Source of the DNA: Trichoplax adhaerens
Lineage: Eukaryota > Animalia > Placozoa
Direction: 5' to 3'
DNA length: 64,000 nucleotides
Assembly (NCBI RefSeq): GCF_000150275.1
Contig: NW_002060943.1
Coordinates: 9,171,270 to 9,235,269, forward strand
Shown: positions 1 through 62,077 of the stretch, piece after piece
How the letters are laid out: each line of letters begins with the position of its first letter
Position numbering within the stretch: position 1 is the stretch's first letter
Notes under the pieces: generated by a model
The model's database searches: none
Told to the model about the DNA's origin: nothing
The model's input: only the letters and a program-made list of their open reading frames with translations
Program-made: the position numbers and the translations under genes

Positions 1-689
1 GAATGGCACATGATTGATTTGACGTTGTGAACATTCATCTCATGGTACAAAGCGTTGGCTGATACAGTACACTAAAATACGACCATGATAAAATGCTCTA
101 CTTTAATGGCGTATTGTTACAATGAAAGGCTTTACCTTTTTAAGATTCAGCAATTGAAATGGTTGGCAGCAATCCAGTTGGACCGAGGTGCGTTTTAGAT
201 AGTCCTGTACTATTTCGAGCGACCTTTTCAACTCGAGCGGTGCTTTCGTCTACTGAATATTGTTGCAAGTTGTAACGTACTGTACAGTTGCAGTGCCTCC
301 ACGAAAGGTCATCGGAAGCGCGACACGCCGAACCAAACGTGCAAACGTGGCAACTTTTACAATATTTATTTTAATATCATTACTATTATTAATTAATTAC
401 TATTATTTTTTATTTCTATTCTACTGTATAGGATATACATATGTATTCTATTTGATTTTATTTCATTTTATTTTTCTATTTTATCAGCTTGACATTGAGC
501 CATCCAATGAAATTGCGTCTTCTTGCTCATTTAGCCAAGCTTTAAATCAGGTGTTCACCATTGTGCATAATTGACTGATAGGAGGTAGTCAAAAATCTCT
601 CTAGTTGAAGCTCAATCATCAAGGTCACGCTTCGTCTTCCAGATAGTGTCCACCAATGTTAGGAACACTGACATTTACAGTATATCGTA

Positions 690-1869: not shown

Positions 1870-1931
1870 TTTCAACCGTTTTACTTACAGTATAGAAGTT
1901 TTTACTAGTCAAGTATATCGAAGAAAATAGG

Positions 1932-2079
1932 ATCACATGGTAACAGTACTGTCTTCTTCCTGTACTGTAGTCCAGTAGTCCATGATCCACTCCATTACGA
2001 TGTTATACTGTACTGTACTAGTAGTCTAGCACACGAGTAGATCGCGCACGCGCACTGCCATCTGATGTTGCATAGCGAC
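1932..2079. promoter_or_regulatory. Candidate RFX X-boxes upstream of TTC23
   Basis: GTTGCATAGCGAC at 2067-2079 and ATCACATGGTAAC at 1932-1944 resemble the RFX X-box (GTTGCCATGGCAAC type). They lie in a CG-rich patch 350-500 bp upstream of the ATG of a cilia-related gene. Confidence 0.45.
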
Positions 2080-10510: not shown

Positions 10511-10659
10511 GTCATAGTTGCCTTTCTCAGTAACAATTTTAGTTCAAGGAAAGCACCATCATTATGTCATCATCTCCAATCGGAAATTTCGCCAGGACTA
10601 AGACTCTTGGCTGTTTTTTATCGAGTGTATGTACAGTATAATCTTGTGATTGAATTGTG

Positions 10660-11345
10660 ACTCCAGTCTGGTCCGGCGCGGTACGGTACAGTACGGTAAG
10701 GCGTGGTCGCCCACCGTAACCATGATTACTATAGAAAATGTATCTTCAGAACTGCACCGGTCCGGTATTAGCTCAATGCATTCAGACCAGTGCTCATATA
10801 GTACAGTACAATCTTATAGTTGATTGTTGAATGCTTTATTAGTGGGGCTATTACTTTCTTTCTTTCTTTCTTTCTTCTCTAGTCACATAGTAGGACAGAA
10901 CGTCATATCCGGCACTCCAGTACTGTACTGTACAAGCAGTGTTTTAGACTACATCAAGGCCATGGTCTACACAAATAACAGAATAGAAAACCAGACCCTG
11001 GTACTGCATCCAATTCCTCTGTAGGTGTTAGTCATGGCTGCTACTCCCTAGTACAGTGTACAGTGTACAGTGTACAGTACTAGGGAGTCAACTGCAACTA
11101 CAGTATAAAACAAATTTCCAAGTTGCACGATACATCGTACTGTAGTCTACCATACATACTGTAGCATTGTACTGTAAGGTTGTACAGTACAAGACTGTAT
11201 GTTCAGCACTGCACCATACAGTACTGAACAGTACATACTGTACTGCACCCTTGAACGGTGCAGTACTGAAATGTACCGTACAACCGCACAGTACTGTACA
11301 CTGTACACTGTACACTGTACAGTACTGTACGCTGAATAGCGCCCA
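10660..11345. promoter_or_regulatory. Bidirectional promoter (LYSMD / WDR61) rich in GTAC/TACAG/CTGTA repeats
   Basis: Lies between divergent ATGs at 10510 (-) and 11376 (+). Contains a GC-rich patch at 10670-10720 and dense CAGTA/TACTG/TGTACAC runs at 11050-11330. Confidence 0.7.
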
Positions 11346-11375
11346 TCTTCAACTCCAAAGCAAAGTCGAGGAGAA

Positions 11376-16157: not shown

Positions 16158-19008
16158 TTAGGCCTTAGATTCTCTATACTTTACCGACTTCTGAGCTTTA
16201 CATGAACTATTTCCTGAATTCTTTATTATTACACCATTTCTATGAGAACTATTTGTTATGACACTAATTTTTGAGCACGATTCGCTATCGATCGCTCTAT
16301 CAGTTACTGACGGAGAAGCTGAATAAATTTGAGCTAATTTATTAGGAGTTTCACATATACTCGTTTCAGTGATATCACTATTGTTCTTTATATTAGGCTT
16401 GGCCGTTATCTGACTGTTCACCAAGCGGCTGCTTCTTGCTTGTAATTGATGATAAGATTCGGCGGTTTTCGCTGTACCAGTTACGGAGATGGATTGATTA
16501 TTGCCATCAGGTTGTCTCATTCCTTCTTTACTTACAGAAACAAGTTGATTACAACTTTCATAATCACGTAATGATACCGATGTGACGACAACCTTACGCT
16601 TCTCACAGCGAAAAGATCTATTATCTTTTAACTTTTTTCTATCAGCTCTTGCTAACATCAAGTTGTTTTGTATAGCATAAAATGCCTTTAGTAAATCCTT
16701 TCTGTTAAGGAAGTTTCTTTTACGTGCTAACATTAAACCATCCAATAACTTTATTATCCCTAAGTCAATTAGTCCATCTTGAATTTTTTTATCGTGTGCG
16801 GATAAGTTCCAGATTATTCCGGCGGTATTGACAACAATATCCAAATTGGAATGCAATAGCTGCTGCACTAATAATTTCAGGCAATTGCCTTTAAGTAATT
16901 TTTCACAATTTTCCGAGCTTTGTGTTAGATGTGTAGAAAGATTTCTCAGTAAGCCAGTTACGTATATAATTAGCTTTACTTCGTTGCTACAAATCAGTGA
17001 CATTATTAGGTCTATTCCGTTTACATAAGAAATTATCGTTTTTTTGCCCTCCTCATGTGCTGAAAAATTCCATAAAGCTGCCAGTAAACTTTTATGAGGG
17101 CTAGAGTCGGTAAGGCTTTTATTATTCAAGTATTCTAAAGCTTGTAAGAGGCTGGTCGCGATTCCAGCATCGTTTAGTGCTTGTCTCATGCAATCATTCG
17201 ATCCTTTCGCTAAGTTACAGCAAACAGTAGCCGCTAAAGAGATCAGTTTTAAGTATTTACAGTTCAGTTGAGCTTTTAAGGCATTCAGAGCATGTTTCGA
17301 TGTACAAAACTGCTCCTTACTCCATTGGTTCTTACATGTTAAGCTTATAGCGATCCTGTCGGCATACTAAGACGGTCAATGATATAAGACAGGTGAGTCT
17401 AAAATTTAGTTACTAAACGATATTGTTCAGATAATAAAAATTAATTACTATCTTACCGAATATATAGTTCTATTAAGTTCAGGTGAAGCCATCTTTTCGT
17501 CGAAAGGATGCATTTCGAAAAGTTCCAAAATATAATAGCTAGCACCAAGCTGTCGCATTCGATTTACTTCATTATCTTGCTGCAGAAAACCGATTAATTG
17601 CTGTAGTGCCATTTTGGCTTTCATTCTACATTCATTTCTCGGTTCATATGGTTGTTCGCCTCGAAAGTGACGTAAAGCATCACAATAAAGTCGTATTTGA
17701 TCCAAATGACGAAGGATTTGCGAATCAATTAAGCATGATTCATCTGACCGTGACTGCAAGTTAATGATATAGTGTAAAGCCTGAGATACTTTATTTCGAA
17801 TTACTTCTCTTTCATCTGGATCGTTGAAATAAATAAGAGCTTCAAAAATTAAATGGGACAATACAGTTTTTAGCATAGGAATCTCTGAACGGGAAAGGTT
17901 GCTTTTATCTGCCATTCTAAGCATATAATGTACTAATTTTTTACCATCATCATTGCCACGCATTTGCTTGCTAATAATTTCATCAGTACTAGTGCTAGTT
18001 TCATGGTTAGGTATTATTGAGAAGTCTCGTGTTTCACGCCGGCTGCGAACGAACGCTGTTGAAGTTTCATTTGTAGTCGTTTTTAAGTGTGTGATCGAAT
18101 CTTCCGGAAAACAACTAGTAGTAATCTCCGCAATATTATCACCGTGTGTATCGATTCCAGATACAGCACGGAGTTTATGTTCTACTGATACGCTACTTAA
18201 ATCTGAGACATAATTATCTGGCTTACTCGCGCTAGGATAGCGAAGATAGTGATCGTTTCCTGATAAATCTTGATCTTGACTTGTGATATTAGTATCACTA
18301 CTTTCTTGTAATTCTTTAGATTTCGAATGCAATTCATAATTCATGCACTTTCCATAATATGGATCATTTGATCCTGCATGTCTGTGATTGCTATCCGTAA
18401 TATTGTATTGCCAAACACTGCTATTGCTCCCATGCAAGGCAACATCGCTCAGAGTAGATGTAACGCGTGCTTTACCAGGCGGATATATTTCGTGGGAATA
18501 TGTCGCGTTATAAGTTTCATTGCTACTGTAATTATCATTTCCATATAAACAAGTCGTATTTTTGAGGGGTAGTATATTCTTATTATCTTTACCATTACTT
18601 TGGTGGCATCCAGGGCAATAATTCCGATATTTGTATCGATTTCCCCCATCGATATAATTGAATGATCCTTCTACTTCTGCGTATATCTTCATTTGTTCCC
18701 TTTCGGTTGGATCTCCCGTTGCCAAGTGCCGTTTACCTATCGAATGTAATTCCTCCTAATTTTAAGAATCAATTAACAAATCTAAATTAGTAAGATAAAG
18801 TTGATCTTAAAATATAACAGCTTTCAAGATAACAATCCTAAAACATTAAAATATACATATATGACGTATTCATATTTATGAATTATGAGCAGAGTTGAAG
18901 TTGATATTACGTTAAGACCGTGATTTGTCTATACTAAGGTTGTTTGTTGATCGTAGAAAAAATTACCGATTGCAACGAATCACTCTCCCACTCTTTTGCG
19001 TTTTGCAT
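16158..19008 (-). CDS. APC: Adenomatous polyposis coli-like armadillo-repeat protein (short form, ~849 aa)
   Basis: Exons 19008-18967, 18755-17457 and 17366-16158 are all phase 0. Motifs ILRHLDQIRLYCD, YADRIAISLT..QFCTSKHALNALKAQL, KSLLAALWNFSAH, GLLRNLS and CLKLLVQQLLHSNLDIVVNTAGIIWNLSAHDKKIQDGLIDLG match the APC pre-ARM and ARM region (LLEQIRAYCE; LSALWNLSAH; IVSNACGTLWNLSARNPKDQEALWDMG). Confidence 0.85.
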
Positions 19009-44730: not shown

Positions 44731-47344
44731 TTAGCTAGTTAAAAGAATAATTGATGACACCGTACCAAAGAGTCCTTCTAATAGAAGTGGAAGTTTACCG
44801 GCCCATAAGATAGAATTTGCTGGCATGTAATGAATGGCGTTGCAGAAGTCGCATCCACTACGTACCATACTTAGTATTGTTTTGATTTGTTCCTCTTGGA
44901 TTTCCCTAATTTTGATATTATGACTACGCTTTTCTTCAAAAGACATAGTATCCATCTCTTTCAGCCTGGCATCACTATAAGGAATGTTGAAACAGACTGT
45001 TTTAAATTGCATAAAATCTCACGTTTCGTCTTTTTGCGAATTTTTACCGTGGCGGTAGGTATTACAGTACTGTAGTGTATATTGAGTGTATAAGCAAAAG
45101 TGCTGCATTTATTGCTATTGTGCGCAGTCCTTTGCATTTACGTATTTCTACCGCTGTTTATTGATACTTCCAAGTCTACTTTTGCCACAATAATTAAGTA
45201 ATGCACTTGCGTTACTATGTACACACTGTACAGTAATGATTTTACCCTTAAAAACGACTTAAATTATACGCGTAGTCTCTCCAACATTTACGGACAATAT
45301 GTACAGTATATTCGTACGTAGAACCAGAACGTACGAATGCTTTTTATTGCACTGTATTGCATTATCCTTGATTACTGATTGCTAGCAGCACTGCCTTTGA
45401 AACATTTTACGGTAAACTACTGTTGTTGTACCGGCGCATCATGCTGAGAGAAAGATCAGACGGATCCAGGAATTAATAGTAACTGCCATTTTCCTGTATT
45501 AGTAATACTACTTTAGTAATAATACACACAGCATTATAACCCCTGGCAGGTCTGATCATGCCGCAAATATCGTTAATCAACAATAGGATTGTATGGAGCA
45601 CTGATGGGCATACACTCGCAACTTGCAAAATATAACAAGCCTGTCGGTTAGTAAGCGGCAGTTTGCATTGCATTTGGAGCATGCAAGGCAAACTGCCGCT
45701 TATTAATACGCAGATAGATAGCTAAATATTCACATTTCCTGTTTGGACACGGACAGCTACATGACAACTACAGTATATAAACATTATACCCGTATATATG
45801 GTACTACGACATAGCAGTTGTTGGTGAGCTCTTGCCGTTATTGTAATCAGAGATGGACAGCTGCAGTCGTAATAACTACGCATATACAACATACAGTACA
45901 CTCAAAATAAAAACAATACAGAAAAAGATGCACAACTCTATCTTAATTATTCATCAACACATCGTGCATATTCGTCAAGATTTGATTCTGTAGGACAAGA
46001 AAACTTTACTGTTCATATGAAAAATAACGTTGACACAAAAAAAGCAAAATACCGTAAACCGTATCGTAGTTTAAAAAAAACTATTTTTCAGAGTCGTATC
46101 AACTGCATTTCAGTATTAATTTTATTTACAAATATGCGTATACTTGCCTTTGACTGTCAGAAGCTTGATTGTTGGTCTTCTCCTTTAAGTTCGACCGTAA
46201 TGTCTGCTTTTGAGTCCTTAATTTCCAAAGCTTGAGTAATCCACGAAGAAAATTCATCATTAGCGAGCAAGCCCAGAGCCTTATACCGAATGCCCACCAA
46301 TATGCTGACTCCGCGAACTTAAAGAGATTATTGCCAGCACCCCATGCCAAGTGCTCAACAGGAAAGTATAACTGATCTGCAGCAGTTTTAATCAGGCCTA
46401 GGAGGCGGGATAATTGGTCTGTATCCTAATCACAGAATACATCATGTTGTATTTATTTCTTATAGATAGAATTACGACATAGTTATTTTATGTAGTCTTC
46501 TCAATGTACGGTATGAAGCATAGATATTTTTTCACATAAGTTGAAAATTCGTAAAAGATTGACTATCAGTCCTGATCTGTAGTTTATTTAGCTACAGGGA
46601 TTTGAACGTATTGTTAGTTGTTAGGTCACAGTAAGAACAGATTTTTTTGGATACTTTCTACACATGGAGCGGATTTTGTTCGTAATTGTGAAGTTAGATA
46701 TGAAAGTACAAATGCTCCATCTTCTCGATTGGCATTTAACTAGCATTGTGTCACAAGCTCAGCGAAGTGCAACATACGGCTAGAGTCAACTGATATTTAT
46801 AAGTACGTAAGCTATACTGCAATTTAACTTAGCGATGATTAGGTTTTCTCAATCGTTTAGATTTCAGAGGCATATAAATTAACAGGAAGAAATAAATTAT
46901 CTTGTATATTGTGCGTACAGTATAACACTGCGTATACTGTATACGCTAAGAATATTATACGATGTAAACAATAATGTACAGTACAGTGTTGTATAGTAGT
47001 GTACTGCATTTATATTTAGAGAAAATTAGTGATATGCCATCACATACAGTATTAATGGTTCAGGAATAAAAATTTCCTTTTAGGTAAAGTACAATAGAAT
47101 CCAAATGCGGAATCATGCTTACCTGGCTCTGCAAGAATCTTATCGTAAATTTCAATATGATCACATCGTCGAAAAGTCGGTAAATAGCTCTGGAATTGCT
47201 CAATGCAGCGGAAAAAGTCAAAAAGCGATTTTGAAAATCCTTATTATGTAATAAGGCTGCAATGAGCTTCGAACCATACTGGCAAGTTCGGATGATATAA
47301 TCTCGACTATAGTAACTCAGCAGCATGGAATTAATTTTATCCAT
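44731..47344 (-). CDS. PEX11G: Peroxisomal membrane protein PEX11 gamma-like, 3 exons
   Basis: SYYSRDYIIRTCQYG...FSAALSNSRAIYRLFDD; ADQLYFPVEHLAWGA...WWAFGIRLWACSL; DFCNAIHYMPANSILWAGKLPLLLEGLFGTVSSII. The second intron is GC-AG. Confidence 0.9.
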
Positions 47345-48862
47345 TTTTCTTGATAGGGCTACGAGCTAGGCAATGGCAACAAGCAACAAGTTAGGTGTGC
47401 GCTGTGTGGTGTCTGTATCTGACTAGACGTACTTGCCAAAGTGGCAGAAGTTCAACTCGGAGTAAAAAACTCTTATGTACAGCACAGTACACTGTGTAGA
47501 TCATACGAGTATACTCGTATGGTCGGGTCTACTTACTGTGTACAGTTGTACAGTACTGCAGTATCGATTTTTGGTACACGTCGCTGAAACTGCTCTGCCG
47601 GCGTATAGTACTGTACCAATAACTGCATTGGAGTCAAATATCCCTCCAAACTCCCCATTGATGTTTATTAACGAAATGTAACGAGGGCAGACATGCAGAC
47701 AGACTGAGTTTTTTGATAGAAGAAAGAAAAGCTAATCACTGGCATAACGTCGCTCGATACCACTGTTAACATTTCCATTTCGTCTCACAGTCAAAGGATA
47801 ACAACAGTCTTAAATCAATGTCAGCACTAGCAAATCAAATATTAACCAACATTAGTTAATTATACGCACAAAAACGACTGAGTGGTTAAAGGTTTTTCAC
47901 TTGCGGTACAGTACAGTACTGTATTACTGTAATGTTCCGTGAACAGGTGTAGAACAAGTATACTCGTAGAGCGAAATTTCAAGTTCAAGGCAAATTCGAA
48001 GGTTTATGCCAACCCTTTTTGTTCTTCTTGACTGATGGTGCTGTATAAATATCTCGCTGACTGTAGTTCAGCCGTGGAAATCTCCAGCTATTTCGTGTAC
48101 GACTCATGTGCATTGCGAAAATAGTCGCGACTCTTTCTAACCCAATACAGGCTTCTAAGATAAATTCTTAGATTCGTTGACTCCCACCCACACTCTACGA
48201 CCTAGATAGTGGAAAGCCCAGATAAATCATTTTATGCTACTGTATTGATTTAATGTGACAGCAATACTGGTCGAATATTCGCCACCCCAAATTAAGGATG
48301 TTAAACGGCGGCGTGTTAAAAATACAAGTTACTGCTGCAGCCTATGCGCCGTTTAACACGCTATCCCACCGATACCTAACGTAAAACGGGTAACAGTGAG
48401 GTATGTCTATTCTAACTGCTTCTTGCTGATCATTTCCTAGTCTCAGCTACCGAAGAATCCAACTCATATTACAGTACTGCTTACTGTATGACTAAAATTT
48501 TTGTCTAGTTACTCAACATGTCTTACTGTAGTATCCGTACAAGTGTCACCTTACTAATAAATCCTTACAATTTGCCCCCAATATTGAATAAATTAAATTA
48601 GCAAAAAAGGAAGACTTAAAAGCCTAAAACTATACGATATATAACTTAAAAAATACATATACAATACAGTAAACGCACATGCCCACAAGTTTGTAAATAT
48701 ATATCAGAGGCTTATAGGCCGGTTTCGCCACCATTATCACGAACTAGTCCGCAACACATGCATGCGTAAAGACCATAATAACAATAACAATATGGGTACT
48801 TGTCCTATGTCCGTGTATCTTACAATACTTTATTCAAATCATGACGTACAGAACAGCGTTAA

Positions 48863-50884
48863 TTAATCTCGTTGCATCATTTTTTGACGAGCTAGCTTCT
48901 TCTTGGAAACTTTCTTCTTTGTTTCCACTTCCTCGCCCTTAGGTACAACCTGTTCACGTTCAGTCAGAATCATTTCGACATGACAAGGCGAGCTCATATA
49001 CGCTGTAGAAACCAAGACATTTGCAAAAAATTAGAGGTAAATCTAATTTATATTTATAATTGAAACAGATAAAGAAGCGTTAAAATTACAAATCCTAACA
49101 CAAACTTTTCAAATATACAGAAATTAGAAGTTCGGCAATCGTAAAATAGCGTTATTCTTAGAGTGAGAATGCATGATTTTATTTTGAGGTAATGTTACTA
49201 GGGAAGCGAATTCCTAACTGTATGGTACTATCATCGTAATTTTTAGCTAATAGAATACTGCGCGTCACAGTACTTAAACAAGGGTCTATTAATCGAAAGT
49301 AGAAACAATGTTGATTAACATAGTTTAAATGGAAATATAGTACTTACGATTAATACGACCATGAGCACGGTAAGTCCTTCTTCTGATGTGAGTAGCTTGA
49401 TTAACTTGAACGTGACCTACCACTAAGGAATCAACATCTAAGCCCTGAGAAATATGATTACAGAACGGGTTAATTAACTACGATTACAATATCTTAGTTT
49501 TTATACTGCATCTGTTCATTATAGCTTTGCATAGTCTAACCTTAACGGCTGCATTACTCTCAGCATTCTTCAGTAGCTGCAGTAGAAACTCAGCACTCTT
49601 TTTTGGCCAACGACCTTGAGTAGTAATCTTATGATTTTTACACTGAACAAAAAAACATCAAAATTTTGAGATTTTTCACAAAATTTTACAATTATTACAT
49701 AATAATTGAACTGAACATATTAATAGATATTAAAGGTATTCTTGCCTAATAAACACTACTTATTACCTGGGCTTTTCTACCAACATCTCCTTTAAATCGT
49801 CGATAAGGTACTATTTGCTTCTTGTTCATCACATCTTTCAAAAATCTCATAGCTTTGTGGATATGCATGTTTTTTAAGGTCATAGCGGTTTCACGGGTAT
49901 TCTATTTACAAAAGTTCAAAGGCGTTAACGTTTTATCTTTAATTTCAAGTGGCGGCTACGACTACGCAACATTATAATTTCCGATACTCGAAATATGATC
50001 ACAATTCACCATGTAAATTAGTCAAAATTTTGAATTGTATTAATCACTTGTTGATGCTATCGTCTAAAATTATTTAGATCAAGGAAAACAATTCTAGATT
50101 ATGGTGACTTTGCACTAATCAACCAGATATATAGTAGAATTGTCTCATGTGTTATTCTGGATTTCTGCTATGGTAGTTACAATATTGGTGCACCAAAGGT
50201 AGAATGAATAATTAAGAACTACGAGAATGTTGTACACATCTATTAGCTATTTAGTAGAATTACTTATGCTGCTAATTCTACATGGTAGTGCATAAGTAAA
50301 TACCATAGCCACATCGTATACACTTACAATGTTGCCAAAGATCTATTAACTTATAATTCATCGTGATACATGCAATGTACTGTATAACGTCGTACACGGG
50401 ATCATACACCACATACTGTATTTTATATATTGTTTCAAAATGACATTACACCGAGCGATGACAACTTAGTGATCTTTACATATTACAGTAATAAGGAACA
50501 AATTTAATACATTAAAGTCAAACGATTGCCTTTTGTGTAAATATGATGTATATTTATTAACAATTACGGTGTAGATTTGGTGTCGTGCTTTACTGTGATC
50601 TACAATTTCTTCTAAATACATAGTCTATATTACATGTTACATACAAATGTATCACTTTGCTGAACGATTCTTACCTTAAAATGAACACGAAGATTATCCC
50701 CGCGTGCCTTGCAAGCTAGAATGGACGAACAGATTAAATCCGTTAAATCGTTATTAATTTACTATAATAAGGGCTACATGTAAGGCTGGATAAATACTGT
50801 GTATAATTATTCAAAGTTTAATATCCAAGTTTTTGGCTTATTACATTTAGATGGGTTTTCTGTTTCAGAGGAGTAGCGACCCAT
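48863..50884 (-). CDS. RPL17: 60S ribosomal protein L17 (uL22), 6 coding exons
   Basis: [27 protein letters not shown]|NTRETA...[26 protein letters not shown]|GLDVD...[13 protein letters not shown]|[14 protein letters not shown]...[13 protein letters not shown]. Confidence 0.98.
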
Positions 50885-51140
50885 GTTCCTATACTAGAGA
50901 CTATTAAAAACACTCTTCAGTATGCAAGAAAAATTAGCAAGAAACATAGCGTTCAGAAAAAGATTTGAAGTACACTTCAAGTTAACAAAAAGCAATCATT
51001 AGTTGCTTCAGCTAACAACCGTTGCATTCATCAATGATTAAAATAGAAAAAAAGATGTATAAGAAAAGTAACATTTGAAAAGTAATACCTAATTCTTGTC
51101 TTCTAATCTTCAGTTGAAGTAAAATTAGTCTAAGAAATAC

Positions 51141-51168
51141 CTCATGGAAGCACGAGGAGCGAAAAAGA
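51141..51168 (-). promoter_or_regulatory. RPL17 non-coding first exon with 5'TOP/TCT pyrimidine tract
   Basis: The minus strand reads TCTTTTTCGCTCCTCGTGCTTCCATGAG|GTATTT: a pyrimidine initiator followed by a GT donor, typical of ribosomal protein genes. Confidence 0.7.
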
Positions 51169-51362
51169 ACTCTTCTTTTTACAGTGCTGTCAAATACAGT
51201 ACTGTAAAGAAGTTTGTGTTGGTACTGTAGGTGCAGTACTGTACTGTATGTACAGTACGTGCAGTACAGTATAGTATCATCTACAGTAGTACAGTACTGT
51301 GCATTGTGTAGTATAAATTACAGGTACAGTACTGTACACTGTACTGTACAGTGTACAGTAAA

Positions 51363-51456
51363 GTACTGTACTGTAAAGGGGTTGGTCATGCGTACTGTAC
51401 TGTACTATAAAGAGGTTGGTCATGCGTACTGTACTGTAAAGAGGTTGGTCATGCGT
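51363..51456. repeat. Three ~30-bp direct repeats in the RPL17/upp divergent promoter
   Basis: GTACTGTACT(G/A)TAAAG(A/G)GGTTGGTCATGC occurs three times. Confidence 0.85.
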
Positions 51457-51992
51457 GCTATACTGTAAATCATTCCAAATCAACACAGTACCACCAGGGA
51501 CTACTGAAAGATTTACCACTGAAACCTTTTCAATGGTCCATAGCTTAACAGACCACTACAGTACTGTATTTCAGAGGTGTGATGAGCTCTTACAGTACAG
51601 TACATTGTACTATACAGTCAGTTCAATTGCTAAAAATCACGCCGTAATAACAGCAGTCTGTCTGTTCATCGCTGAATAAGGTTAAAATGTCAAGCAATAA
51701 ACACGTGACATGTCGCGTGCATTGACATTTGACAGTAGCGCTTTACAGTACTTTACTGTAGGTCACTACTCACTACAAACACGTTTATTTTCTCTTTAGA
51801 TATAGAAAAAGGGAAAAAATACAGTATGATTTGAACTAACATACTATTCAAATACTGTACCTTATACCAACATCTAGCTAGAGAGCTGAATTTTTTTATA
51901 TACAGTACTGTATGTTGATAGATTTAAACTTAGCCCCAACTGTCCATGCAAGAATTGTTAAGGTACAGTACAGTACAGTACAGTTCAGTACT

Positions 51993-52178
51993 GTACATTG
52001 TACTGTAAATATCACGTGGCATCTACTCTACCGTACTGTACATTGTACTGAACAGTACATTGTATAACGTACTCAGTACAGTATTTAGCTATCCAAAAAA
52101 TCTAAAGAATTAAATAAACATGCCGTTCCGTACAGTACGGTAGAGTAGATGCCACGTGATATTTACAGTACAATGTAC
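51993..52178. mobile_element. Foldback / MITE-like element: 49-bp perfect inverted repeats around an 88-bp spacer
   Basis: GTACATTGTACTGTAAATATCACGTGGCATCTACTCTACCGTACTGTAC (51993-52041) has its exact reverse complement at 52130-52178. No clear target-site duplication. Mobility is inferred, not shown. Confidence 0.55.
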
Positions 52179-52606
52179 TGTACTGTACAGTTGTGATTTC
52201 GCACGAAATCAGGTGGCAAGTCCAGCATTACATTACAGTACAGTACTATACAGTACTGTAGGTCACCGGGTGTAACGAGTACAGTACAGTACAGTATACT
52301 GTACTGTACTGTACTAACGAACATGCACTGTACTGTAGTGTACACTGTACTGTGACTGTAGTAGTGATACGTACTGATCATATTTAACGAGAGCATGTGG
52401 GAAATCTTAATTACAACCTTTCAATGAACAGGTGCAGTGGTGCAATTAAGGGTTTCTGCTGTTGTTAGCTCCTGGCCGAATTAACTTCACTGTTCAACTG
52501 TTGCTAAGTTTTGTATTTTGTGACCATATCATAATATTCTACTAGATTATTGTGTTATTAAACTTGTCGGTTGGCCTTTTTACGAAGCTATTTCACTACA
52601 TTAATT

Positions 52607-53284
52607 ATGATGGATGAAAATCACAACGGAAATATCCACGTTTTAGGCGATGAACCGTCCCTATTTAGCCAATTCTTGGTTGAAGTTCGAGATCATAAGA
52701 TTCAGAAAGATCGGGTTAAATTTAGACGTAATATAGGACGTTTAGGAGAAATTTTTGCCTATCACATCAGTCAAACTTTAGAATATAGCCACAGGCGTGT
52801 TACTACTCCTTTAGGAAATGTGGAAATGCCGTCTTTGATCAATGAACCGGTGATAGTCTCTATTTTGCGAGCTGGCTTACCTTTGCATCAAGGTATTTTA
52901 AATTACTTTGACAATGCAGATAACGGATTCGTTTCGGCATATCGAAAAGACCGTGAAAATCAGAATGGCTTTGAAGTCAAGGTTGAATATATAGCTTCTC
53001 CTTGTTTGAAAGATAGAGTAGTTATATTAGCGGATCCTATGCTAGCAACTGGATCGTCGCTATTGTTGGCGTATGATGCAATTTGTAAGCTAGGCCCACC
53101 TGCGCACATCCATCTAGTCAGCTTAATAGCAAGCAAAGTCGGACTACAAAATATTACTAGTAAGATTCCTTCTTCCATGCTGACTATATGGCTAGGTGCT
53201 ATCGACGAAGTACTTGATGAGAAGTCTTATATTGTTCCTGGACTTGGAGATGCTGGCGATTTAGCTTATGGCACTAAAATATGA
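52607..53284 (+). CDS. upp: Uracil phosphoribosyltransferase, bacterial (Bacteroidota-like) type, intronless
   Basis: Single 225-codon ORF from ATG 52607 with FRRNIGRLGEIFAY, TPLG, SILRAGLPLHQG, PRPP motif VILADPMLATGSS and uracil-binding C-terminus YIVPGLGDAGDLAYG. Confidence 0.93.
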   Translation: MMDENHNGNIHVLGDEPSLFSQFLVEVRDHKIQKDRVKFRRNIGRLGEIFAYHISQTLEYSHRRVTTPLGNVEMPSLINEPVIVSILRAGLPLHQGILNYFDNADNGFVSAYRKDRENQNGFEVKVEYIASPCLKDRVVILADPMLATGSSLLLAYDAICKLGPPAHIHLVSLIASKVGLQNITSKIPSSMLTIWLGAIDEVLDEKSYIVPGLGDAGDLAYGTKI

Positions 53285-55419
53285 ATTAATTGTTGATATT
53301 GTATAGAATTATATTTTTATATTTGACAACTCATTTACACGGTACTTCTTTTAAATTTGAATGAAACAAAAACTTACAGCATAGTATTGAATTTCCGTAT
53401 ATGCGAATCCTTACATACTACTTTACAAATTTAGAAACTTAGATTTATAATCATCGAGTATATGTGCTTATCCTCCACCGAAATTTGTCATTTGACTTGC
53501 ATATTAGCAAAAAATTTTCACGTGGTAGGAAGTATTGATAAGAGTATTATATATATATAGGTATGTACGTACAAGAATATTTATGGACTGTATGAATACA
53601 GTATACGAAATAATATACGATATGTTATACAGTATATCCATGCTATCGTGATTAAGATCAGATTTTAAGGTGTACTCATTGTACTGTACTGTGCTATAAA
53701 CACAGACCTGCTGTTATCTTTTTATGAACATTTACAGAAAAGTACCAATGGTTTTTAATTAAACAATAAGGACATGTAATCAACTGCTACCGATGCATCG
53801 GTGCTATGAAGTCTGCACAAAAAAAGAGGTAACTGATGAAGTACAGTAGTCATTCATCGTCCTCAAGAACAAATTTATTTTGAAATCACTGTATGGTTTA
53901 GGTAAATGCTGCTTCTCGATAATTTCAGAATATGAGACTTATATGAGTTGGCTTGAGATTCGTAGTGGAATAATAAATAGCCGAAGATACTAAAATCATA
54001 CAGTCATACAGTATAGTACTGCCCAGTATAACCACGCGGTTAATTGTAATTCCTGACTTAACAGTATTACCGTCATAAAGTTTTATATCGTGTAAATATA
54101 AACTAGCACCAACAAAATATTGGTCAATCTCCATACGAATTATTATCATTAAAGGACTGATTGACTGGCGAGATATGTTGGTATAAACCACAAATATTCT
54201 TCAGTACAATTTTATTCACTTCGTATGATAGAAGATGGAGATTTTACAAATGAAAAGTTATATTAGAACATCATTCACCACTACCTACGATAATAGCGGT
54301 GAAGATAAGTTCGTAGAATAAAATTTAATCGGGCACTTGTCAACTTGTTTCGTCCATAAAAATGTGACTTTGAAAGTGACGTGCTGTAAAATCAGCTACT
54401 GATGGGAGATCCTCATTAAATAGGGTAGAGGAGTTGAGGTTTATTCCGGAGAAACTGCCTGACAAAATACATTTTATTATGACAATGTACAATATAAGTC
54501 AAAACGACCAAGAAATATAATGGCTATATGCAAGTAATCCACAGAATACGCTCTATACAGTATTAGCGTGCCACATGCCACGCTGTACGAACAGAAGATT
54601 TACACATCAAACTTTAAAAGTAGCCTCCATATCTGTCGTACAACAGCAATTAAACTCATTCTTGTGGAACCTCCATTGGTCTGAGCCGCTAAATTAAAGG
54701 TTACAGCATAATTTGCAAGCTTTACCTAATGCAAAGGATTTGAGAGCTGAACTTAAAGCGAGCAGAACAGTTCTGTGCCTACAGTTACAAATTTACTACT
54801 TTCAACCTGATTTAAGTAGTGTTACTCATCTCCAAGGTCCAAGATAAAGTTGAAAATAAAGTTACATTTAATACAGTAATTTGAAATTTTTTAGCAACGT
54901 TAGTCTCATGTGTCCATTTTGTGAGACTAATAAAATTTTTCAACTGACTCACCGTAAAATTATGATATCTAATAACTTAATGCATCTTTAATATTGAGCT
55001 CTCTCGTATAATAATACTATAAAGAAGGCTAGAAGAAATGGAATTGGTCTTAGTAATTAATGAATTAATTGTTACAATGTATACTGTATACACTTGTACA
55101 GTAGACCATATATGTAAGGGTATATTATTTATTTATTTATTTACGTCGTATGTCTTCTGGCCTTATAACGATTAATTACTTTTAATTATAATTAGTCATT
55201 GCATGAAATGATCAAAATAGTATACTCTACTATCTTATGTAATATGATAAGTAGTATTTGTGAAATTTAAGTAATCGGAAGCAGGTTTCTTATTCTACTT
55301 ATTTTATTATTTAGGAAAATTAATTAATTAACGAAATAAATGACAGACAGACAGCGGCTAAAACTATAGTTTATTACTGGTTATTGGTTAAAACAGACAG
55401 TTAGGAATTAATACTACTG

Positions 55420-55780
55420 TAGAGTACAGTTCAGTATACTGTACTGTACTCTACTCTACTGTTAGTCATCATGTACAGTACTGTACAATGTACATACTGT
55501 ACCGTACGCTGTACAGTACAATATGTACTTTACAGTGTACAGTGTACAGTACTTTATTTGTTCACAGTACTGTGCATTGTACACGATTGACAATATCCCT
55601 TTGTGCAGTACTGTACTGTACTGTACTGTTCAGTGTCCAGTACTGCCTTTAGGCCAAACTATAGAGATAACAGAAAAATCTACAGTACAATACTGTACAC
55701 TGTACAGTACAGGGTCCTTCTCTTTTACTGTACTGTACACTCTATAGGCTGCACATTACTGCACATCTTGCACTGTGCGC
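55420..55780. promoter_or_regulatory. CAGTA/TACTG-rich tract at the ANKMY2 promoter
   Basis: Dense GTACTGTAC/TACAGTAC runs end ~50 bp before the ATG at 55834. Confidence 0.6.
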
Positions 55781-55833: not shown

Positions 55834-58800
55834 ATGGATTTAAATGAAAATGAAAAAAGTCTAATTCAAGCAGTATCTAAAGGTAGGTATTTACTGTTAT
55901 AGGTTTACTGTATAATTACTGTACAGCATAATTAGTATGGTTATTTTTTGAGAAGATTGATTAAATCGTCGTTGTTGTACAATACCATTTGCTTCTTACA
56001 AAGAGCATGAATATGAATTATACGTTTTATAACACTGCCAGTATACAGTGTTATACACTACAGCAGTGCGTTATTAGGAGCAATATTCTTTACATTATAA
56101 TTTTGATGATCGTAGTACGGTACAATGTACAGCCGATTCTTTTGTATTTCCACTCGACTTTATTAGACCCGAATTACACATTTCTTAATTAATATTAATA
56201 ACCGATATTTATGATTAGCAATTAATGTGATATCTATGATATGTATATACTGTACAGTAAATGATTTCCTGTAGTAGCCTGGCCCTGCTAGGATGCGACC
56301 ATAAGTAATGTATTTGCTTCCATTACTATGTTAATTCAATCTTTCTTTGGAAAGGTGACGAAGGAATAGTTCGACAATTACTATGTGAATCCAACGTTTC
56401 CATTGATTGCTGCGACGAGGTAATATATACCCGTATTCTATTTAGACTCTAATATAATTGTACGTGCAATAATCCCTATCGATGATATTATTATGTATTA
56501 AAGTTGATTTCGATTTTCACGCAGTATCATGAGTAGGCCCTCCGAATACCGTATTGTAATGTCTCCATTTTGGCATTAATATAAGAACTAATCATACTGT
56601 ACGCCTCTCTAGTGAATTGTAATGCATTGCGTACGTATGCATTTTACAGGGCTTGAGGTACCCTATGAGTTACACCACTGAAATACATGTAGCGGATGTA
56701 ACTGTTTTAAAGATCACCAAAAACTGTTCAAATGCTGATTCAATTCTCGGCTTTTGGATACAGTAATAAAGGATGAAATAGTAGAAATTATAACAATAAC
56801 TTACTCGTTCTTTAAAATCTTACAAGCCTGCTATTAATGCTTATCTCTTTCATATTGAAACATTTTCAGACTGGCATGACCCCCCTGATGCATGCTGCAT
56901 ATAAAGGAAATGCAAACTTCTGTGATCTCTTAATAAAAAATGGCGCTAATGTAAATTGTAACAACCATGAATATCAGGTATGCTCGAATATTACTACAAT
57001 TCGTATTTGCAAAGGCTAATCATTTCAATATTATAATGTCGGTATCGAATACTAACCTTTCTTTTTCTAATGTATTTCATATATTTAAGTACACGCCTTT
57101 GATGTTTGCTGCCTTAGCCGGTAAGGCAATTACATTCCCAATTATGAAACTCTTTAGTTTACTTATAAAATTTACATGGAATAAGATCTAGTAATATCTA
57201 ATGTATAGCCTGTTGCTAAAATAAAGTTTTATATAAATTTATATACTGTACGTGTATACAGGCTCAGTGGAAACTGCTAAGGTGCTACTTGAAGCTGGTG
57301 CCTCGACAAAAGCTACAAATAAAGTCAATCGAACAGCGTCGCAACTTGGCGCCTTTGTTGGTTAGTGATTAACTAAAGTAGTAGCACTTTCATGTGCTGC
57401 AAATTTTGTATGAGTAGCACTTGCAGTATATTATTACCAAAGACTCTAAGTAATACGTATATACTAAACAAAAGTGATTTGTAGCCAAAATACATTTGTT
57501 ACTTCTATAATAAATGCAGTGTTATAATTATATTTAATTATATTATAATTTCTTATTGATTGTAAAGTTATTATCACGTCTAGTACATGATGTGCAATTT
57601 TAGTAAATTTTATGAATTAGTAATACAAGAGTTTGAGAATTAATCACTAAAGCAGTTACGCCTTAAATTTATTTTGCGTTAAATGATAGGTTGTATAAAT
57701 GTTATATTAAGTCTATTACTCTATGTACCTTATAATTATGATACAAATACCATTTTACATATCTAAACTCATAGGCTGGCTTTATATATCATCTAGATGA
57801 TGTTCAACGTGCTATGTTTAAACTAGTTCCTAAGATTTACGTATAATATAAATGTATAGCTGCACTTTACTGTTAGTGTTATCCAGAAATCTGTATCTTC
57901 CTTGAAAATAATTTTACTTATTTTAGTTTTAATTAGCAGCTATCAAGAAACGTTAGCAATTACTGTAAAACTTTTGATTCTAATAATTATATTGGATGGA
58001 AATTACGATTAAAGCATTAGAAATACATATTATTCGTTATACGGGTTAGGGTATATAATTGAAAACTTAAACTGGTTACTTAATATTTGTACAATTTATC
58101 AGAATTTAATAACATTAAACATCCAAATAATAGGGCAGCATCATGTTGTCAGCTTTATCAACAGCTTCGTGCCTTTTGAAGAATTGGAATATTTCACAAA
58201 GCCACACGGTATGAAATAACAACAAAGTATCTTATAATTTACAGCAAAATAGTTTCAAAGCTATAATGTAATATGACACAGACTCTCCTTAGTCACTCTG
58301 AAATAATATGAGGACTTAAGCGCGCTGTGATTTGTGTGCTGGTCAACAGGTATAATAACTTTATGATGTAAACAGTGCTGCATCAGAATTCACTTTTTAC
58401 CATATTTGATTATGTTCCTCAATGCCAATTAAAGACTTCACCTATAGGCAAGAGCTCACAATGCTTAGCCGGTTTCTAAAGTCTGCTCATAAAGTGTCTA
58501 TACTCAACCTTATTCAATTACATCTTCCTGCAATTTAATTAAAATAAAAACTGACTATCACTTAACTTTAATATTAGAATTGATTCTTACAGTTAAAAGC
58601 TTGTACTATGAAATTTAAATTACTGATATCAAAAGTCTAGCTTTACTAAATATGTTTAAATCACATGAACAATGAAATGCTTCGTAATATGATAGCGATA
58701 TAGGGTTCTTTTAAATTTGTTGCGGGTGCGAATACTGTATTTAATTATCTTCACAGGCTTAGAAACTGAACCGAAATTACCACCTTTAATGGCTCGAATT

Positions 58801-59999
58801 TTTCATAAATTACTACTAAACTCAAATATGAATCCTTGTCGCGTAAGTCTAAAAGTATTTTGCATAAGAAAGCTAAACTCATCGTCGAGTATAATTTTTT
58901 CCTGATTTCATTTTTTACTTCTTCGAATCACTCTTACCAGATCGTTATCTTCCTGATGGATAACAAAGATCTAGTCGACAACTGGGAGATTGCTGTATCG
59001 ATGTTAGAGCTGCTTTGTGAAAGAAGTATGAAAGCTCAAGAAACTAACGAAATCATGTCAATGAGAATGCATTATTTTTCATACATTATTAAAGCAGTCG
59101 TAAAACATGAAGATGGACCTATGGCATTTTTGAAACAGTACGCCATGTCATGTTTGCAAAATTTTCGGCTGTTTAAGTGCAACCTTTGTAGTGATTATTT
59201 GTCTTAAATAGTTTACTAAAGGGTAGTGAACCCAATGGTGTGCAAATAAGGATGGAGCAATTCATCCGGCAAGCGATTAGAAGTTTTCCATATCATGAGT
59301 CTACCTTATTTGTGCAGTTAGTGCGCAATATCGCTCCAGTGAAATTGGTAATGAAATATATACAGTATATTGCTTTTCCAAATTTATTAACCTGCAAGAT
59401 TAGTTGCATATATGTACCGGTGATCACTTTTGACCTCATAAATTACTTGTCTAATAGGGAGATGATCCTTCTTCTCTTTCCGTTTTAACGACTGGTATTA
59501 ATGGTCATCAAAGGTAGTAATTTCGGATAACAAATTAAAATTAACGTACAATTATTTCTTCCTGCACCTTAATATATCTAACATACTCAATATCACCTGA
59601 TAGTGCCGACTTCAGCGATTGTTGCTATACTTGCGGAGAGAAAAGAGCCAACATGAAATGTTCAGCTTGTAAAAAGGTTATTAATTTTCACATATTGCAT
59701 TGTAATAAGACTAATTAATTAACTTATAGAGTTAACAATGTGGAAGGCCGCGTCTTTCGTGATTTTTAATTATTTCGATTTCCGTATATATGTACTCTGT
59801 TTAGGTTAAGTATTGCGATCAAAGATGTCAGAAATTTCACTGGTTCACACACAAAAAATTTTGTAAATATTTTGCCGAAGAATTCTTACGCGAACAAAAA
59901 CTACAAGAAGCTGAGGAGAACATTTCACAATCTGCCAATACTTGCATAAGTGAAGCAAATATTTCTGGCGAAACCTCTGATCCCAAATCAGAACAATGA
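55834..59999 (+). CDS. ANKMY2: Ankyrin repeat and MYND domain-containing protein 2, 12 exons
   Basis: [12 protein letters not shown]...HEYQ|[11 protein letters not shown]...[15 protein letters not shown]...[13 protein letters not shown]...[39 protein letters not shown]; MYND finger CYTCGE....[27 protein letters not shown]; stop at 59997-59999. Confidence 0.95.
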
Positions 60000-62077
60000 T
60001 AGTCATTTTTACAATCGTGGAAATAATGTAGTATAAAACAAAAATGGTAATTTTTAAAATTGTACGTAGGCAAGCTTTTGTATTAAAGGCTGTCATCATA
60101 ATGTCATTTTTCATTCTTTGGCATATGGAATTTTAATTGCATTAGTATTATCTTACCTAGCCTATTTAAAATGAGTTCATAAACGTTATTTAGAGCCTTC
60201 AACTGCATTTATTATTATGGAGTAAAGTAGTAATATCTGCATGTAAGTACAATAAACTGACAATACATATTACTGTATGTATGTTTTCTGGTAGATAAAT
60301 TGTTGTAATCATGAATTATATAAATTGGTAATTTACTGCTGACGTCGGATGTAACACAGCAGTACATATTCTTTGTAATATTTCTGTGATTTGCTGTTGC
60401 CTCTTCAAATAAATCTACTGTAAATGTGATTGGTAACTTACATTTAATTGGTAGAGGATCCTCTATTTGCATAAATGGACTCAATTATGCATCGTTAGGT
60501 ATCGAATTTTTGATCGCCCTTAAAGATTTAAATGATTTGCTATTACTTCAATAGCCAACGTTGGATCACTCCAATACGAATTTAAACTACTTCGATCGCG
60601 AAGTTCGATATCTTATATGAAAGTTTTGCTTATTAAAGATTAATTTATAAGTTATTAATGCGTTGGTACCAGCATTAGCGCTTAACTTATCAACTTTATC
60701 AATTTATCCAGCTTTACTAGCCCAAGGTGACGATGCCAGAGTACATATCGTAACCCTTAATGATTAATGAATTAACTAGAGAAACTGCATACGAGCTATA
60801 TCATATACATTATGTAGCAACCAATTCAAGTTTCTGGTAAAGTACGTATTGTACATTAGGAATAGGCACTTAATTCCGGCTAAAATAAAGCTGTGAATAA
60901 CCAGCAAAGTATCGTACTTGTTCTTGAGAGATGATTACAGTATCAATTAAGATGAGAACAGAGGAAAGATATAATGATATCAATATAAAACCTGATATTA
61001 GTATAAGTAAAATTAATTTTCTGTATAAGGTACAGTATATCCAGAGAACTATAAATATTAAGATGTTTTGATACAGTACTGACACTACATTTATGAGTTC
61101 TTAATCAATTTTATATTACAACCACAAAATGGAGCTTGATTTTTGAATGATGAACGTAAAATCAAGAGAAGAAAGTGATTTACCTATTGGTGAGGTACTA
61201 TTACTATACTCATAATAACTAATAGTCTCCATAATACAACTTAAAAGTGCAGTAAAATAGAAATGGTAGTGCACATGATCTGATCTCAAATTCTACATAC
61301 TAAGCGAAAAGATATAGCATCTCTGTAAGTCTAAACTGTAAAATATCTACACAATAGTTTGAGTTCGGGTGCTATAGATTGCTAGCAGTTTGCATATGCT
61401 TTTCACTTGCTACCGTTGGAGTAAATGTACTAAGTGGCGATTGAACTGCTCAAACTTACAACGGAGTCTGTTTAGATGCTCAATCGGAATATCTTTTGAT
61501 TTGGTTGCAAGGATGAGTGTGCGATTCTTCATTACTATGCTGCATAGTTCTTAGATTCTTTGCTTCTTAACAGGTTTCATGCAATCATAGATACTTGTAT
61601 GAGTTTTGATAAGTTAAGAGTATTTGTATTTCACACGAATATTTTATTAATTTTTTTAAAGCCTGTAATAAGCATTGCTTGTACATTTCTATTCTTAACT
61701 CTATCATCGCTAGTAGTGGATGGCAAAACGATAATGATTGCTCTTATACTGACAGAGTAATCAGGTATATGATATAATCATGAAGATGCATTACTTCTTC
61801 CCTTATTACCTTATCCTCAGTTAACGAAGCAATATGCATAGTCAATCGTTTAATCATTAAGTGAGTTTAGATATGTTTTGAAAAAATAAATATTTTTACT
61901 TACCATACGATATAGCTTATTATACATAGGCACATCAATAGTTTTATCACAATATGTTACTAAAGGTAATCCTTTATGCGTCAAAAGATTCTCGTATAGG
62001 ATTCAATCATCATAAAATACATTTTAATGAATACGAAATAGTGACTACAAAATAAAGCACATTATACAAATTGAATA

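What the first reader, a model, noticed from the sequence alone, without database searches (positions are those of the whole stretch)
52607..53284. Intronless Bacteroidota-type upp inside an animal gene neighbourhood: horizontal transfer candidate
Seen: it is the only protein gene in the window without coding introns. It is flanked by intron-rich RPL17 and ANKMY2, lies ~9 kb from the nearest gap, and has the same TACAG/CTGTA upstream tract as the host genes. Known: eukaryotic UPRT/FUR1 typically carries IGKILIQ and GDFGDRY motifs. This protein instead has GFVSAYRK..FEVKVEYIASP and PGLGDAGDLAYGxK, which I recognise from Bacteroides/Flavobacterium Upp. Human UPRT has no demonstrated activity. 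Inference: a domesticated bacterial gene providing direct uracil-to-UMP salvage. The described placozoan symbionts (Rickettsiales, Margulisbacteria) are not Bacteroidota, so a food or biofilm donor is more plausible.
Basis: partly seen in the sequence, partly recalled or inferred. Interest (0 to 1): 0.8.

Follow-up and report, generated by a model that had tools for sequence, protein, structure and literature searches.

The report
Bacterial uracil-salvage gene in animal genome
An animal genome, likely a placozoan's, carries an intact, intron-free gene for a bacterial-type uracil-recycling enzyme that was likely acquired long ago from a bacterium; it would give this animal a microbial salvage enzyme that the animal version has not matched in test-tube assays.

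Summary
Confirmed. 52607-53284 (+) is an intact, intron-free uracil phosphoribosyltransferase (UPRT/Upp) gene with all catalytic and PRPP-binding residues and a confident UPRT fold. It is host DNA: its depth matches single-copy flanks in five DNA-type runs from five studies. One RNA run covers it with an unspliced 1.4-kb contig (modest evidence). Two unnamed close homologues (86%, 90%) exist; the next hits are 55-61% identical and, where named, almost all Bacteroidota. Eukaryotic FUR1-type proteins reach 34%, and grouping with them is rejected (AU p=0.004). Two careful trees tie it to one unnamed bacterial lineage (100/96, 95/98), backed by a shared one-residue insertion. A position just outside named Bacteroidia is not rejected (p=0.11), so 'Bacteroidota-type' is shown and the donor is not. 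The TACAG tract is shared head-to-head with RPL17. No contig bridges to neighbouring exons; animal UPRT/UCKL1 were not in the trees; activity is untested. Ten literature searches found no report of this transfer, though other placozoan transfers are published and Drosophila UPRT works in vivo. The scan had not noted this gene on other animal DNA; it holds other placozoan transfer candidates. A new, well-supported case of a known kind.

The parts
52607..53284 (+). Intron-free CDS of a Bacteroidota-type uracil phosphoribosyltransferase (225 aa from 52607, 224 aa from 52610)
   Evidence: AlphaFold2 model pLDDT 95, pTM 0.91; Foldseek TM 0.82-0.87 to solved UPRTs
52452..53891 (.). Stretch covered by one unspliced RNA contig: about 155 nt upstream and about 600 nt downstream of the CDS; likely the transcript, strand not shown
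   Evidence: run X19 record 12, depth 13.9; a contig of run X20 (same study) also starts at 52452
51170..52450 (.). TACAG/CTGTA-rich tract between the divergent 5' ends of RPL17 and upp; likely a shared promoter region (inferred)
   Evidence: 48 units per kb against 7 per kb window mean; repeat families D1-D8; high-copy elsewhere in the genome
51980..52191 (.). MITE-like inverted repeat inside the tract: 62-nt arms, 95% complementary, 88 nt apart; no clear target-site duplication seen
48863..51169 (-). RPL17 (uL22), spliced host gene, head-to-head with upp; ATG at 50884, one 5' UTR intron and five coding introns
   Evidence: RNA joints at depth 160-726; GT-AG ends and open spliced frame; Pfam PF00237
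55834..59679 (+). Intron-rich ankyrin and MYND-like gene (ANKMY2-like; name recalled), downstream neighbour with its own TACAG tract at about 55390-55760; 3' end not fixed

Best explanation
This is an intact, intron-free gene in the host's own DNA that encodes a Bacteroidota-type uracil phosphoribosyltransferase, likely acquired once from a bacterium before the host split from the carriers of its two close homologues, and predicted to convert free uracil and PRPP to UMP in the cytosol. Shown: intact frame, UPRT fold, conserved Arg87, Arg112, the DPMLATG PRPP loop, the YIVPG/GDAGD uracil pocket and Asp214 (numbering from 52610), host-level depth, and bacterial placement away from FUR1. Inferred: placozoan host, single old transfer, transcription from a promoter tract shared with RPL17, enzyme activity, and use in recycling uracil from RNA turnover and digested biofilm food.
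For: Depth of the contig over the gene against flanking single-copy contigs: 28 vs 30-36 (X1), 63 vs 54-65 (X5), 35 vs 29-39 (X7), 39 vs 37-42 (X10), 77 vs 64-77 (X2); five runs, five studies. Contigs run from the host TACAG tract through the CDS (X1, X7, X2) and on to 55418 (X5, X10). RNA contig 52452-53891 at depth 13.9 with no cover at 53967-55370 in X19. Homologues at 86% and 90%, then 117 listed hits at 55-61%; 72 of 73 named genome loci are Bacteroidota by title; best of 120 FUR1-type proteins is 34%. Careful tree: three-sequence clade 100/100 on a 0.6 stem, inside the Bacteroidota-type group (100/93, 100/94, 100/99), FUR1 clade apart at 100/100; union with FUR1 rejected, p-AU 0.0038. 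Sister to one unnamed bacterial group at 100/96 and 95/98; a 7-residue loop is shared by 2 of 3 (8 in the third) and 28 of 29 of that group, against 12 of 88 other top hits. Arg112 and Asp214 are invariant, Arg87 nearly so, in 86 aligned relatives; they match the residues named for catalysis and PRPP binding in PMC3570474 (mapping by motif and the E. coli alignment). 5-FU-resistant B. fragilis mutants map to upp (10.1101/820084), which suggests this bacterial type is active. Three of four CDS variants listed are synonymous.
Against: No listed contig bridges upp to exons of RPL17 or the ANKMY2-like gene; contigs break at the repeat tracts. In X20 the cover over the gene (depth 4-5) is no higher than intronic background (up to 7); both RNA runs are random-primed, contig-only and from one study. 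A position outside the named Bacteroidia crown is not rejected (p-AU 0.114, 33 rows, quick tree), FastTree left the group's sister unresolved, and bootstraps had not settled (0.896, 0.974). Codon use fits the host (GC3 0.31 vs 0.28-0.40) but 16 of 73 bacterial homologues fit as well or better. Animal UPRT and UCKL1 were not in the trees. The ESM Atlas top cluster (61 members) is 50% eukaryotic among 8 records with a phylum, and those eukaryotes are unnamed. No activity data.
Confidence: 0.74

Rival explanations
1. The gene is bacterial in origin but the transfer is older than placozoans: it entered an early animal or holozoan and survives in other, unsampled or more diverged eukaryotes.
For: The Atlas top cluster is 50% Eukaryota among 8 records with a phylum and has a 247-aa representative. 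Only the best 120 of 7,999 hits were listed, so eukaryotic copies below about 55% identity would be hidden. The stem leading to the group is long.
Against: No listed near-length hit has an EukProt or MMETSP source. None of the full-length 50%-cluster representatives joined the clade. The one EukProt hit, P0279, is an Upp-HAD read-through that pairs with a bacterial genome sequence at 100/99 and looks like contamination. No 'uracil' entry in the Amphimedon HGT supplements, the Mnemiopsis HGT text or the bdelloid paper's searched text and supplements.
Confidence: 0.12
2. The gene is a real transfer but is kept for an altered or non-catalytic role, such as another base substrate or a protein interaction, and not mainly for uracil salvage.
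For: Long stem relative to bacterial branches. Animals have other routes to UMP and Drosophila's own UPRT works in vivo (PMC4536494). Arabidopsis UPP has a reported moonlighting role (10.1101/2023.08.28.555145, search listing only). The ant XGPRT transfer is argued to be promiscuous (PMC13320244, passages).
Against: All catalytic, PRPP and uracil-pocket motifs are unchanged in the three sequences; no added domain, signal peptide or long extension; the model overlays solved UPRTs at about 2 A.
Confidence: 0.09
3. The gene is bacterial DNA misassembled into the host contig, or belongs to a bacterium that always accompanies the host.
For: No introns; no contig bridge to neighbouring exons; the homologues' source organisms are unnamed.
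Against: Depth follows host single-copy depth in five studies; contigs join the CDS to host-type TACAG tracts on both sides; no other bacterial-type ORF of 80 aa or more was recognised within the 2 kb either side, no operon context; variants in the CDS are shared across runs like those in the flanks; the contig is 13.3 Mb.
Confidence: 0.03
4. The gene is a fast-evolving, vertically inherited eukaryotic FUR1/UPRT or a retrocopy of one.
For: Intron loss by retroposition would explain the single exon; animal UPRT and UCKL1 were not sampled.
Against: 34% best identity to 120 FUR1-type proteins against 55-61% to bacteria, opposite motif sets, AU rejection.
Confidence: 0.02

Closest known systems
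Bacterial Upp, Bacteroidota type (NCBIfam NF001097/PRK00129; e.g. Parabacteroides distasonis upp WP_008780579.1, 53% identity)
   Same: Length, fold, catalytic and PRPP motifs, and the type-specific SAYRK, Y[IL][AS][ST]P and GDAGDL[AS][YF]G motifs.
   Different: Sits alone between spliced animal genes, has long apparent UTRs, a short N-terminal extension and a long branch; no operon.
Solved UPRTs of Sulfolobus solfataricus (1xtt, 3g6w), Thermotoga maritima (1o5o), Bacillus caldolyticus (1i5e), E. coli (2ehj)
   Same: Same type I PRTase/UPRT fold, TM 0.82-0.87.
   Different: 29-39% identity; no structure of the Bacteroidota type was found. Three residues follow the C-terminal glycine, the pattern that PMC3570474 links to lack of Sulfolobus-style GTP control.
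Eukaryotic FUR1-type UPRT (Toxoplasma 1upu, Candida 7rh8, fungi, Amoebozoa)
   Same: Same reaction and fold.
   Different: 26-34% identity, different motifs, separate clade.
Animal UPRT (human UPRT, Drosophila Krishah)
   Same: Same superfamily; Krishah supports 4-thiouracil incorporation in vivo (PMC4536494).
   Different: Animal UPRT lacks two uracil-site glycines and human UPRT is inactive in vitro (PMC4536494, PMC3570474); this protein keeps the microbial pocket. Not compared by sequence here.
Published bacteria-to-placozoan transfers (Driscoll et al. 2013, PMC3641634: BPL_N, DapF, MurA, RsmE, PhrB, GNAT, MhpC)
   Same: Bacterial-type genes on large host scaffolds.
   Different: upp is not among the 12; several of those are rickettsial or chlamydial, this one is Bacteroidota-type.
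Horizontally acquired XGPRT of Cardiocondyla ants (PMC13320244) and UPRT of metamonads (PMC11437800)
   Same: A bacterial salvage PRTase adopted by a eukaryote.
   Different: The ant gene is a purine PRTase from an enterobacterial symbiont; the metamonad UPRT is in protists. Neither was compared by sequence here.

Membership tests
Uracil phosphoribosyltransferase (EC 2.4.2.9) | Scores above curated family cut-off | tested here: met
   PRK00129 199.5 > 114; PF14681 135 > 27; TIGR01091 162.5 < 208.35
Uracil phosphoribosyltransferase (EC 2.4.2.9) | Type I PRTase fold with UPRT hood and arm | tested here: met
   pLDDT 95; the top Foldseek ranks are all UPRTs at TM 0.73-0.87, other PRTases at 0.39-0.49
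Uracil phosphoribosyltransferase (EC 2.4.2.9) | PRPP loop, two PRPP/catalytic arginines, catalytic aspartate and uracil-pocket glycines | tested here: met
   Arg87, Arg112, DPMLATG 142-148, YIVPG 207-211, Gly213, Asp214 (residue roles from PMC3570474 passages)
Uracil phosphoribosyltransferase (EC 2.4.2.9) | Converts uracil and PRPP to UMP | not testable with these tools
   needs assay or complementation
Bacteroidota-type Upp | Type motifs and membership of the discrete high-scoring group | tested here: met
   Motif census; 85 of 401 genomes score 178-265 bits, the next scores 104; tree
Bacteroidota-type Upp | Nested inside named Bacteroidia, so that the donor is a Bacteroidia lineage | tested here: inconclusive
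   Nested in the best trees but the outside position is not rejected (p 0.114); sister group unnamed
Eukaryotic FUR1-type UPRT | GKILIQ and GDFGDRY motifs; one clade with fungal and amoebozoan UPRT | tested here: not met
Animal UPRT / UCKL1 | Orthology with animal UPRT or the UCKL1 C-terminal domain | not tested
   no such sequences were returned by any search
Domesticated horizontal transfer | Present in host DNA at single-copy depth in independent data | tested here: met
   five runs, five studies
Domesticated horizontal transfer | Physical link to host exons on single molecules | tested here: inconclusive
   contigs join the CDS to host repeat tracts but break there; no long reads served
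Domesticated horizontal transfer | Transcribed as host mRNA | tested here: inconclusive
   one RNA contig over the whole gene in X19, background-level cover in X20; no strand or polyA information
Domesticated horizontal transfer | Shared and syntenic in related species | tested here: inconclusive

The most novel reading that the evidence does not exclude
Placozoans as a group are animals that regained a fully microbial uracil-salvage enzyme from a non-symbiont bacterium, switched it on by landing it head-to-head with a ribosomal-protein gene on a shared, transposon-derived TACAG promoter tract, and use it as their main route for recycling uracil from digested biofilm and for offsetting nucleotide drain by their Rickettsiales symbiont. 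They would then be natively 5-fluorouracil-sensitive and 4-thiouracil-labelable without a transgene.
Probability: 0.2. Interest if true: 0.7.

Novelty: new member of a known kind. Interest (0 to 1): 0.48.

Why it matters
If right, it adds a clean, apparently unreported transfer to the small placozoan list, from a bacterial group other than the described symbionts, and it touches an open point: whether animals salvage free uracil. The animal enzyme lacks part of the uracil pocket and is inactive in vitro but active in flies; a lineage that keeps a microbial copy allows a direct comparison. It also predicts cheap handles for an animal with few genetic tools: 4-thiouracil RNA labelling without a transgene and 5-fluorouracil counter-selection. 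The enzyme and the phenomenon are both known, so surprise is moderate.

Tried and rejected
No whole genome is held, so the host's other UPRT, UCKL1, uridine kinase and uridine phosphorylase genes could not be listed. Cluster membership for P0002-P0004 and the sister group could not be looked up, leaving them unnamed. A metagenome scan with the three-sequence alignment found 89 relatives (80 kept), all at 56% identity or less, so no context for the close homologues. Viral contigs gave one weak 27% match. Searches for the sister group's genomes found nothing above 65% in 146 genomes and 67% in 401 genomes; the Atlas gave only 'commonest Bacteroidota' for P0005's neighbours. EukProt P0279 and Logan P0280 (Upp-HAD fusions) were considered as other eukaryotic members and rejected because each pairs with bacterial genome sequences. 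Codon usage was tried as evidence of amelioration and does not discriminate. Runs X2 and X14, guessed to be RNA, show no splice joints and were not used as expression evidence. Missing cover in X5 and X10 beyond about 58,200-58,600 was not interpreted. No complex prediction was run: a UPRT oligomer would pass by likeness to solved structures. One search's sample could not be tied to named classes, so it is used only for the score gap.

Full report
Observation. The frame at 52607-53284 (+) is open for 225 codons, with tandem ATGs at 52607 and 52610. It passes the curated cut-offs of NCBIfam PRK00129 and Pfam UPRTase and misses that of TIGR01091. An AlphaFold2 model built on 86 relatives has pLDDT 95 and pTM 0.91. 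Its best Foldseek matches are all UPRTs (TM 0.73-0.87); other PRTases follow at 0.39-0.49. Numbering from 52610, Arg87, Arg112, the DPMLATG loop, YIVPG, Gly213 and Asp214 are present; Arg112 and Asp214 are invariant in the 86-row alignment. These correspond, by motif and by the alignment to E. coli Upp, to the residues proposed for PRPP binding and catalysis in PMC3570474 (passages read).

Neighbourhood. RPL17 lies head-to-head on the minus strand. Six RNA joints have GT-AG ends and give an open spliced frame, and three exons hit Pfam L22/L17e (one above cut-off). Downstream is an intron-rich gene with an ankyrin exon and a MYND-like exon (the name ANKMY2 is recalled). The nearest gap is 8,794 bp away. 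The TACAG/CTGTA tract fills 51170-52450, between the two 5' ends, so it is best read as a shared promoter region (inferred). It holds a 212-bp inverted repeat. PMC12221973 (section 8 and passages read) reports Mutator TIR-derived motifs at placozoan housekeeping promoters; the motif itself is in a figure I could not see, so identity with this tract is not shown. No call names the organism.

Is it host DNA? Twenty of 24 listed runs, from six studies, hold the stretch or part of it. I laid 8 of them. In five DNA-type runs from five studies the contig over the gene has the depth of the single-copy flanks: 28 vs 30-36, 63 vs 54-65, 35 vs 29-39, 39 vs 37-42 and 77 vs 64-77. Contigs start inside the TACAG tract and run through the CDS (52286-53559 in X1); in X5 and X10 they reach 55418, the tract before the next gene. 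None of the listed pieces bridges to a neighbouring exon, because contigs break at the repeats. Of four CDS variants visible in the truncated tables, three are synonymous. Contamination is unlikely.

Is it expressed? RNA run X19 shows spliced RPL17 and one unspliced contig over 52452-53891 at depth 13.9, with intronic pieces at 2-5 and no cover at 53967-55370. X20, from the same study, covers the gene in pieces at depth 4-5, no higher than its intronic pieces. Both are random-primed and contig-only. Expression is likely but rests on one run.

Relatives. Of 7,999 hits the best 120 were listed: the gene itself, P0003 (86%, full length), P0004 (90%, 153 aa), then 117 at 55-61%; the two with organism names are Bacteroidota. 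Of 73 named genome loci, 72 are Bacteroidota by title and one is labelled Ca. Delongbacteria; best identity 56% (pattern-seeded). Among 40 listed of 88 plasmid records, two Bacteroidales score 53% and 47% and the others 27-37%. In 401 sampled genomes, 85 score 178-265 bits and the next scores 104, so this Upp type is discrete. To obtain eukaryotic UPRTs I found a FUR1-type ORF in a viral contig and used it as query; the best of those 120 proteins is 34% identical to the window protein, and the motif sets are mutually exclusive (partly circular). P0003 and P0004 are unnamed. Their 9-14% distance lies within the range reported between Trichoplax and Hoilungia orthologues (PMC6067683, passages), so related animals are the simplest reading, but this is inferred.

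Trees. FastTree on 328 rows (full-length hits; 6 short or broken loci skipped, and loci L074-L078 and L117 onward left out) gives the three sequences 100 support inside Bacteroidota-type Upp with no resolved sister. The careful mixture-model tree on 75 chosen rows keeps them together (100/100, stem 0.6), joins them to P0005 and P0007 (100/96), nests them in the Bacteroidota-type group (100/93, 100/94, 100/99) and separates ten named FUR1-type proteins (100/100) (bootstrap not settled, 0.896). Forcing them with FUR1 is rejected (delta lnL 54.5, p-AU 0.0038). A 47-row tree with 14 members of the sister group gives 95/98. A 7-residue loop after SAYRK is shared with 28 of 29 sister-group proteins, against 12 of 88 other top hits (7 unparsed) and 0 of 72 named loci (34 unparsed). 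Against a firm donor call: a position outside the named Bacteroidia crown is not rejected (p-AU 0.114, 33 rows), and the sister group was not found in 146 or 401 further genomes. Its amino-acid make-up suggests a GC-rich genome (GARP/FYMINK 1.45 vs 0.85), which would imply amelioration, but codon use alone does not discriminate. The only EukProt hit among 27 longer proteins, P0279, pairs with a bacterial genome sequence and looks like a read-through of two bacterial genes. The Atlas top cluster is half eukaryotic among 8 labelled records, unnamed; it may be this protein's own cluster or may hide other eukaryotes. Animal UPRT and UCKL1 were not sampled.

Mechanism. Most likely a bacterial upp entered the germ line once, settled next to the RPL17 promoter tract, stayed intron-free and has been kept under selection. 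Its product would join uracil to PRPP to make UMP in one step. Support for activity is indirect: intact site, and 5-FU-resistant B. fragilis mutants mapping to upp (10.1101/820084, passages). A benefit from uracil in digested biofilm, or against nucleotide uptake by Grellia, which depends on host nucleotides (PMC6784892, passages), is speculation.

Prior knowledge. Ten full-text searches were run. Trichoplax with uracil phosphoribosyltransferase returns 0 papers; none of the 30 listed of 203 mentions Trichoplax. Driscoll et al. 2013 (passages; 5 of 6 supplements searched) list 12 transfers and do not mention uracil or upp. The 2026 metazoan HGT compendium has no 'uracil' in its text, but its dataset is on Figshare and could not be seen, so a listing there is not excluded; subscription journals are also not covered. 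The 2026 microbiome preprint treats Flavobacteriaceae as sporadic associates (passages). Human UPRT is inactive in vitro while Drosophila Krishah is active in vivo (PMC4536494, first part and passages), which weakens the idea that animals lack this route. Parallels are the ant XGPRT (PMC13320244, passages) and metamonad UPRT (PMC11437800, passages).

Verdict. A real, well-supported and apparently unreported transfer of a Bacteroidota-type upp into an animal genome; a known enzyme and a known process. New member of a known kind; interest 0.48.

Noticed in passing
window 51980-52191: MITE-like element with 62-nt arms (95% complementary) built from TACAG units, inside the RPL17/upp intergenic tract; may relate to the Mutator TIR promoter motif of PMC12221973.
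   Followed up: partly
window 1-2000, 10001-12000, 32001-34000, 51170-52450, 55390-55760: Five dense TACAG/CTGTA tracts; they are high-copy in the genome and at least two lie at gene 5' ends.
   Followed up: partly
window 51363-51467: Three near-identical 29-34-nt units in tandem (93-95% alike) near the RPL17 5' end.
   Followed up: no
window 44731-47365 (-): Three PEX11 exon hits; two are consecutive parts of one gene, the third at 44731-45018 may belong to the same or a second PEX11-like gene.
   Followed up: no
window 16158-18755 (-): Two long ORFs (435 and 402 aa) 81 nt apart with an Armadillo repeat, APC-like by recall.
   Followed up: no
window 58142-60000: Runs X5 and X10 lose cover over the 3' part of the ANKMY2-like gene while X1 and X7 keep it; could be a filter effect or haplotype divergence.
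   Followed up: no
window 54382: A 28-nt insertion relative to the window in runs X1, X5 and X2, downstream of upp.
   Followed up: no
L198:778-1536; L199:886-1533; L200:1491-2141: Eukaryote-type (FUR1-like) UPRT genes in three giant-virus bins; the L198 protein is 66% identical to amoebozoan UPRT.
   Followed up: partly
P0279 (EukProt), P0280: Upp-HAD 'fusions' that pair with bacterial sequences; probably read-through of adjacent bacterial genes in contaminated or frameshifted data.
   Followed up: partly
L003: A contig titled Ca. Delongbacteria carries an Upp that groups tightly (100/100) with Bacteroidales: a misbinned contig or a transfer between bacteria.
   Followed up: no
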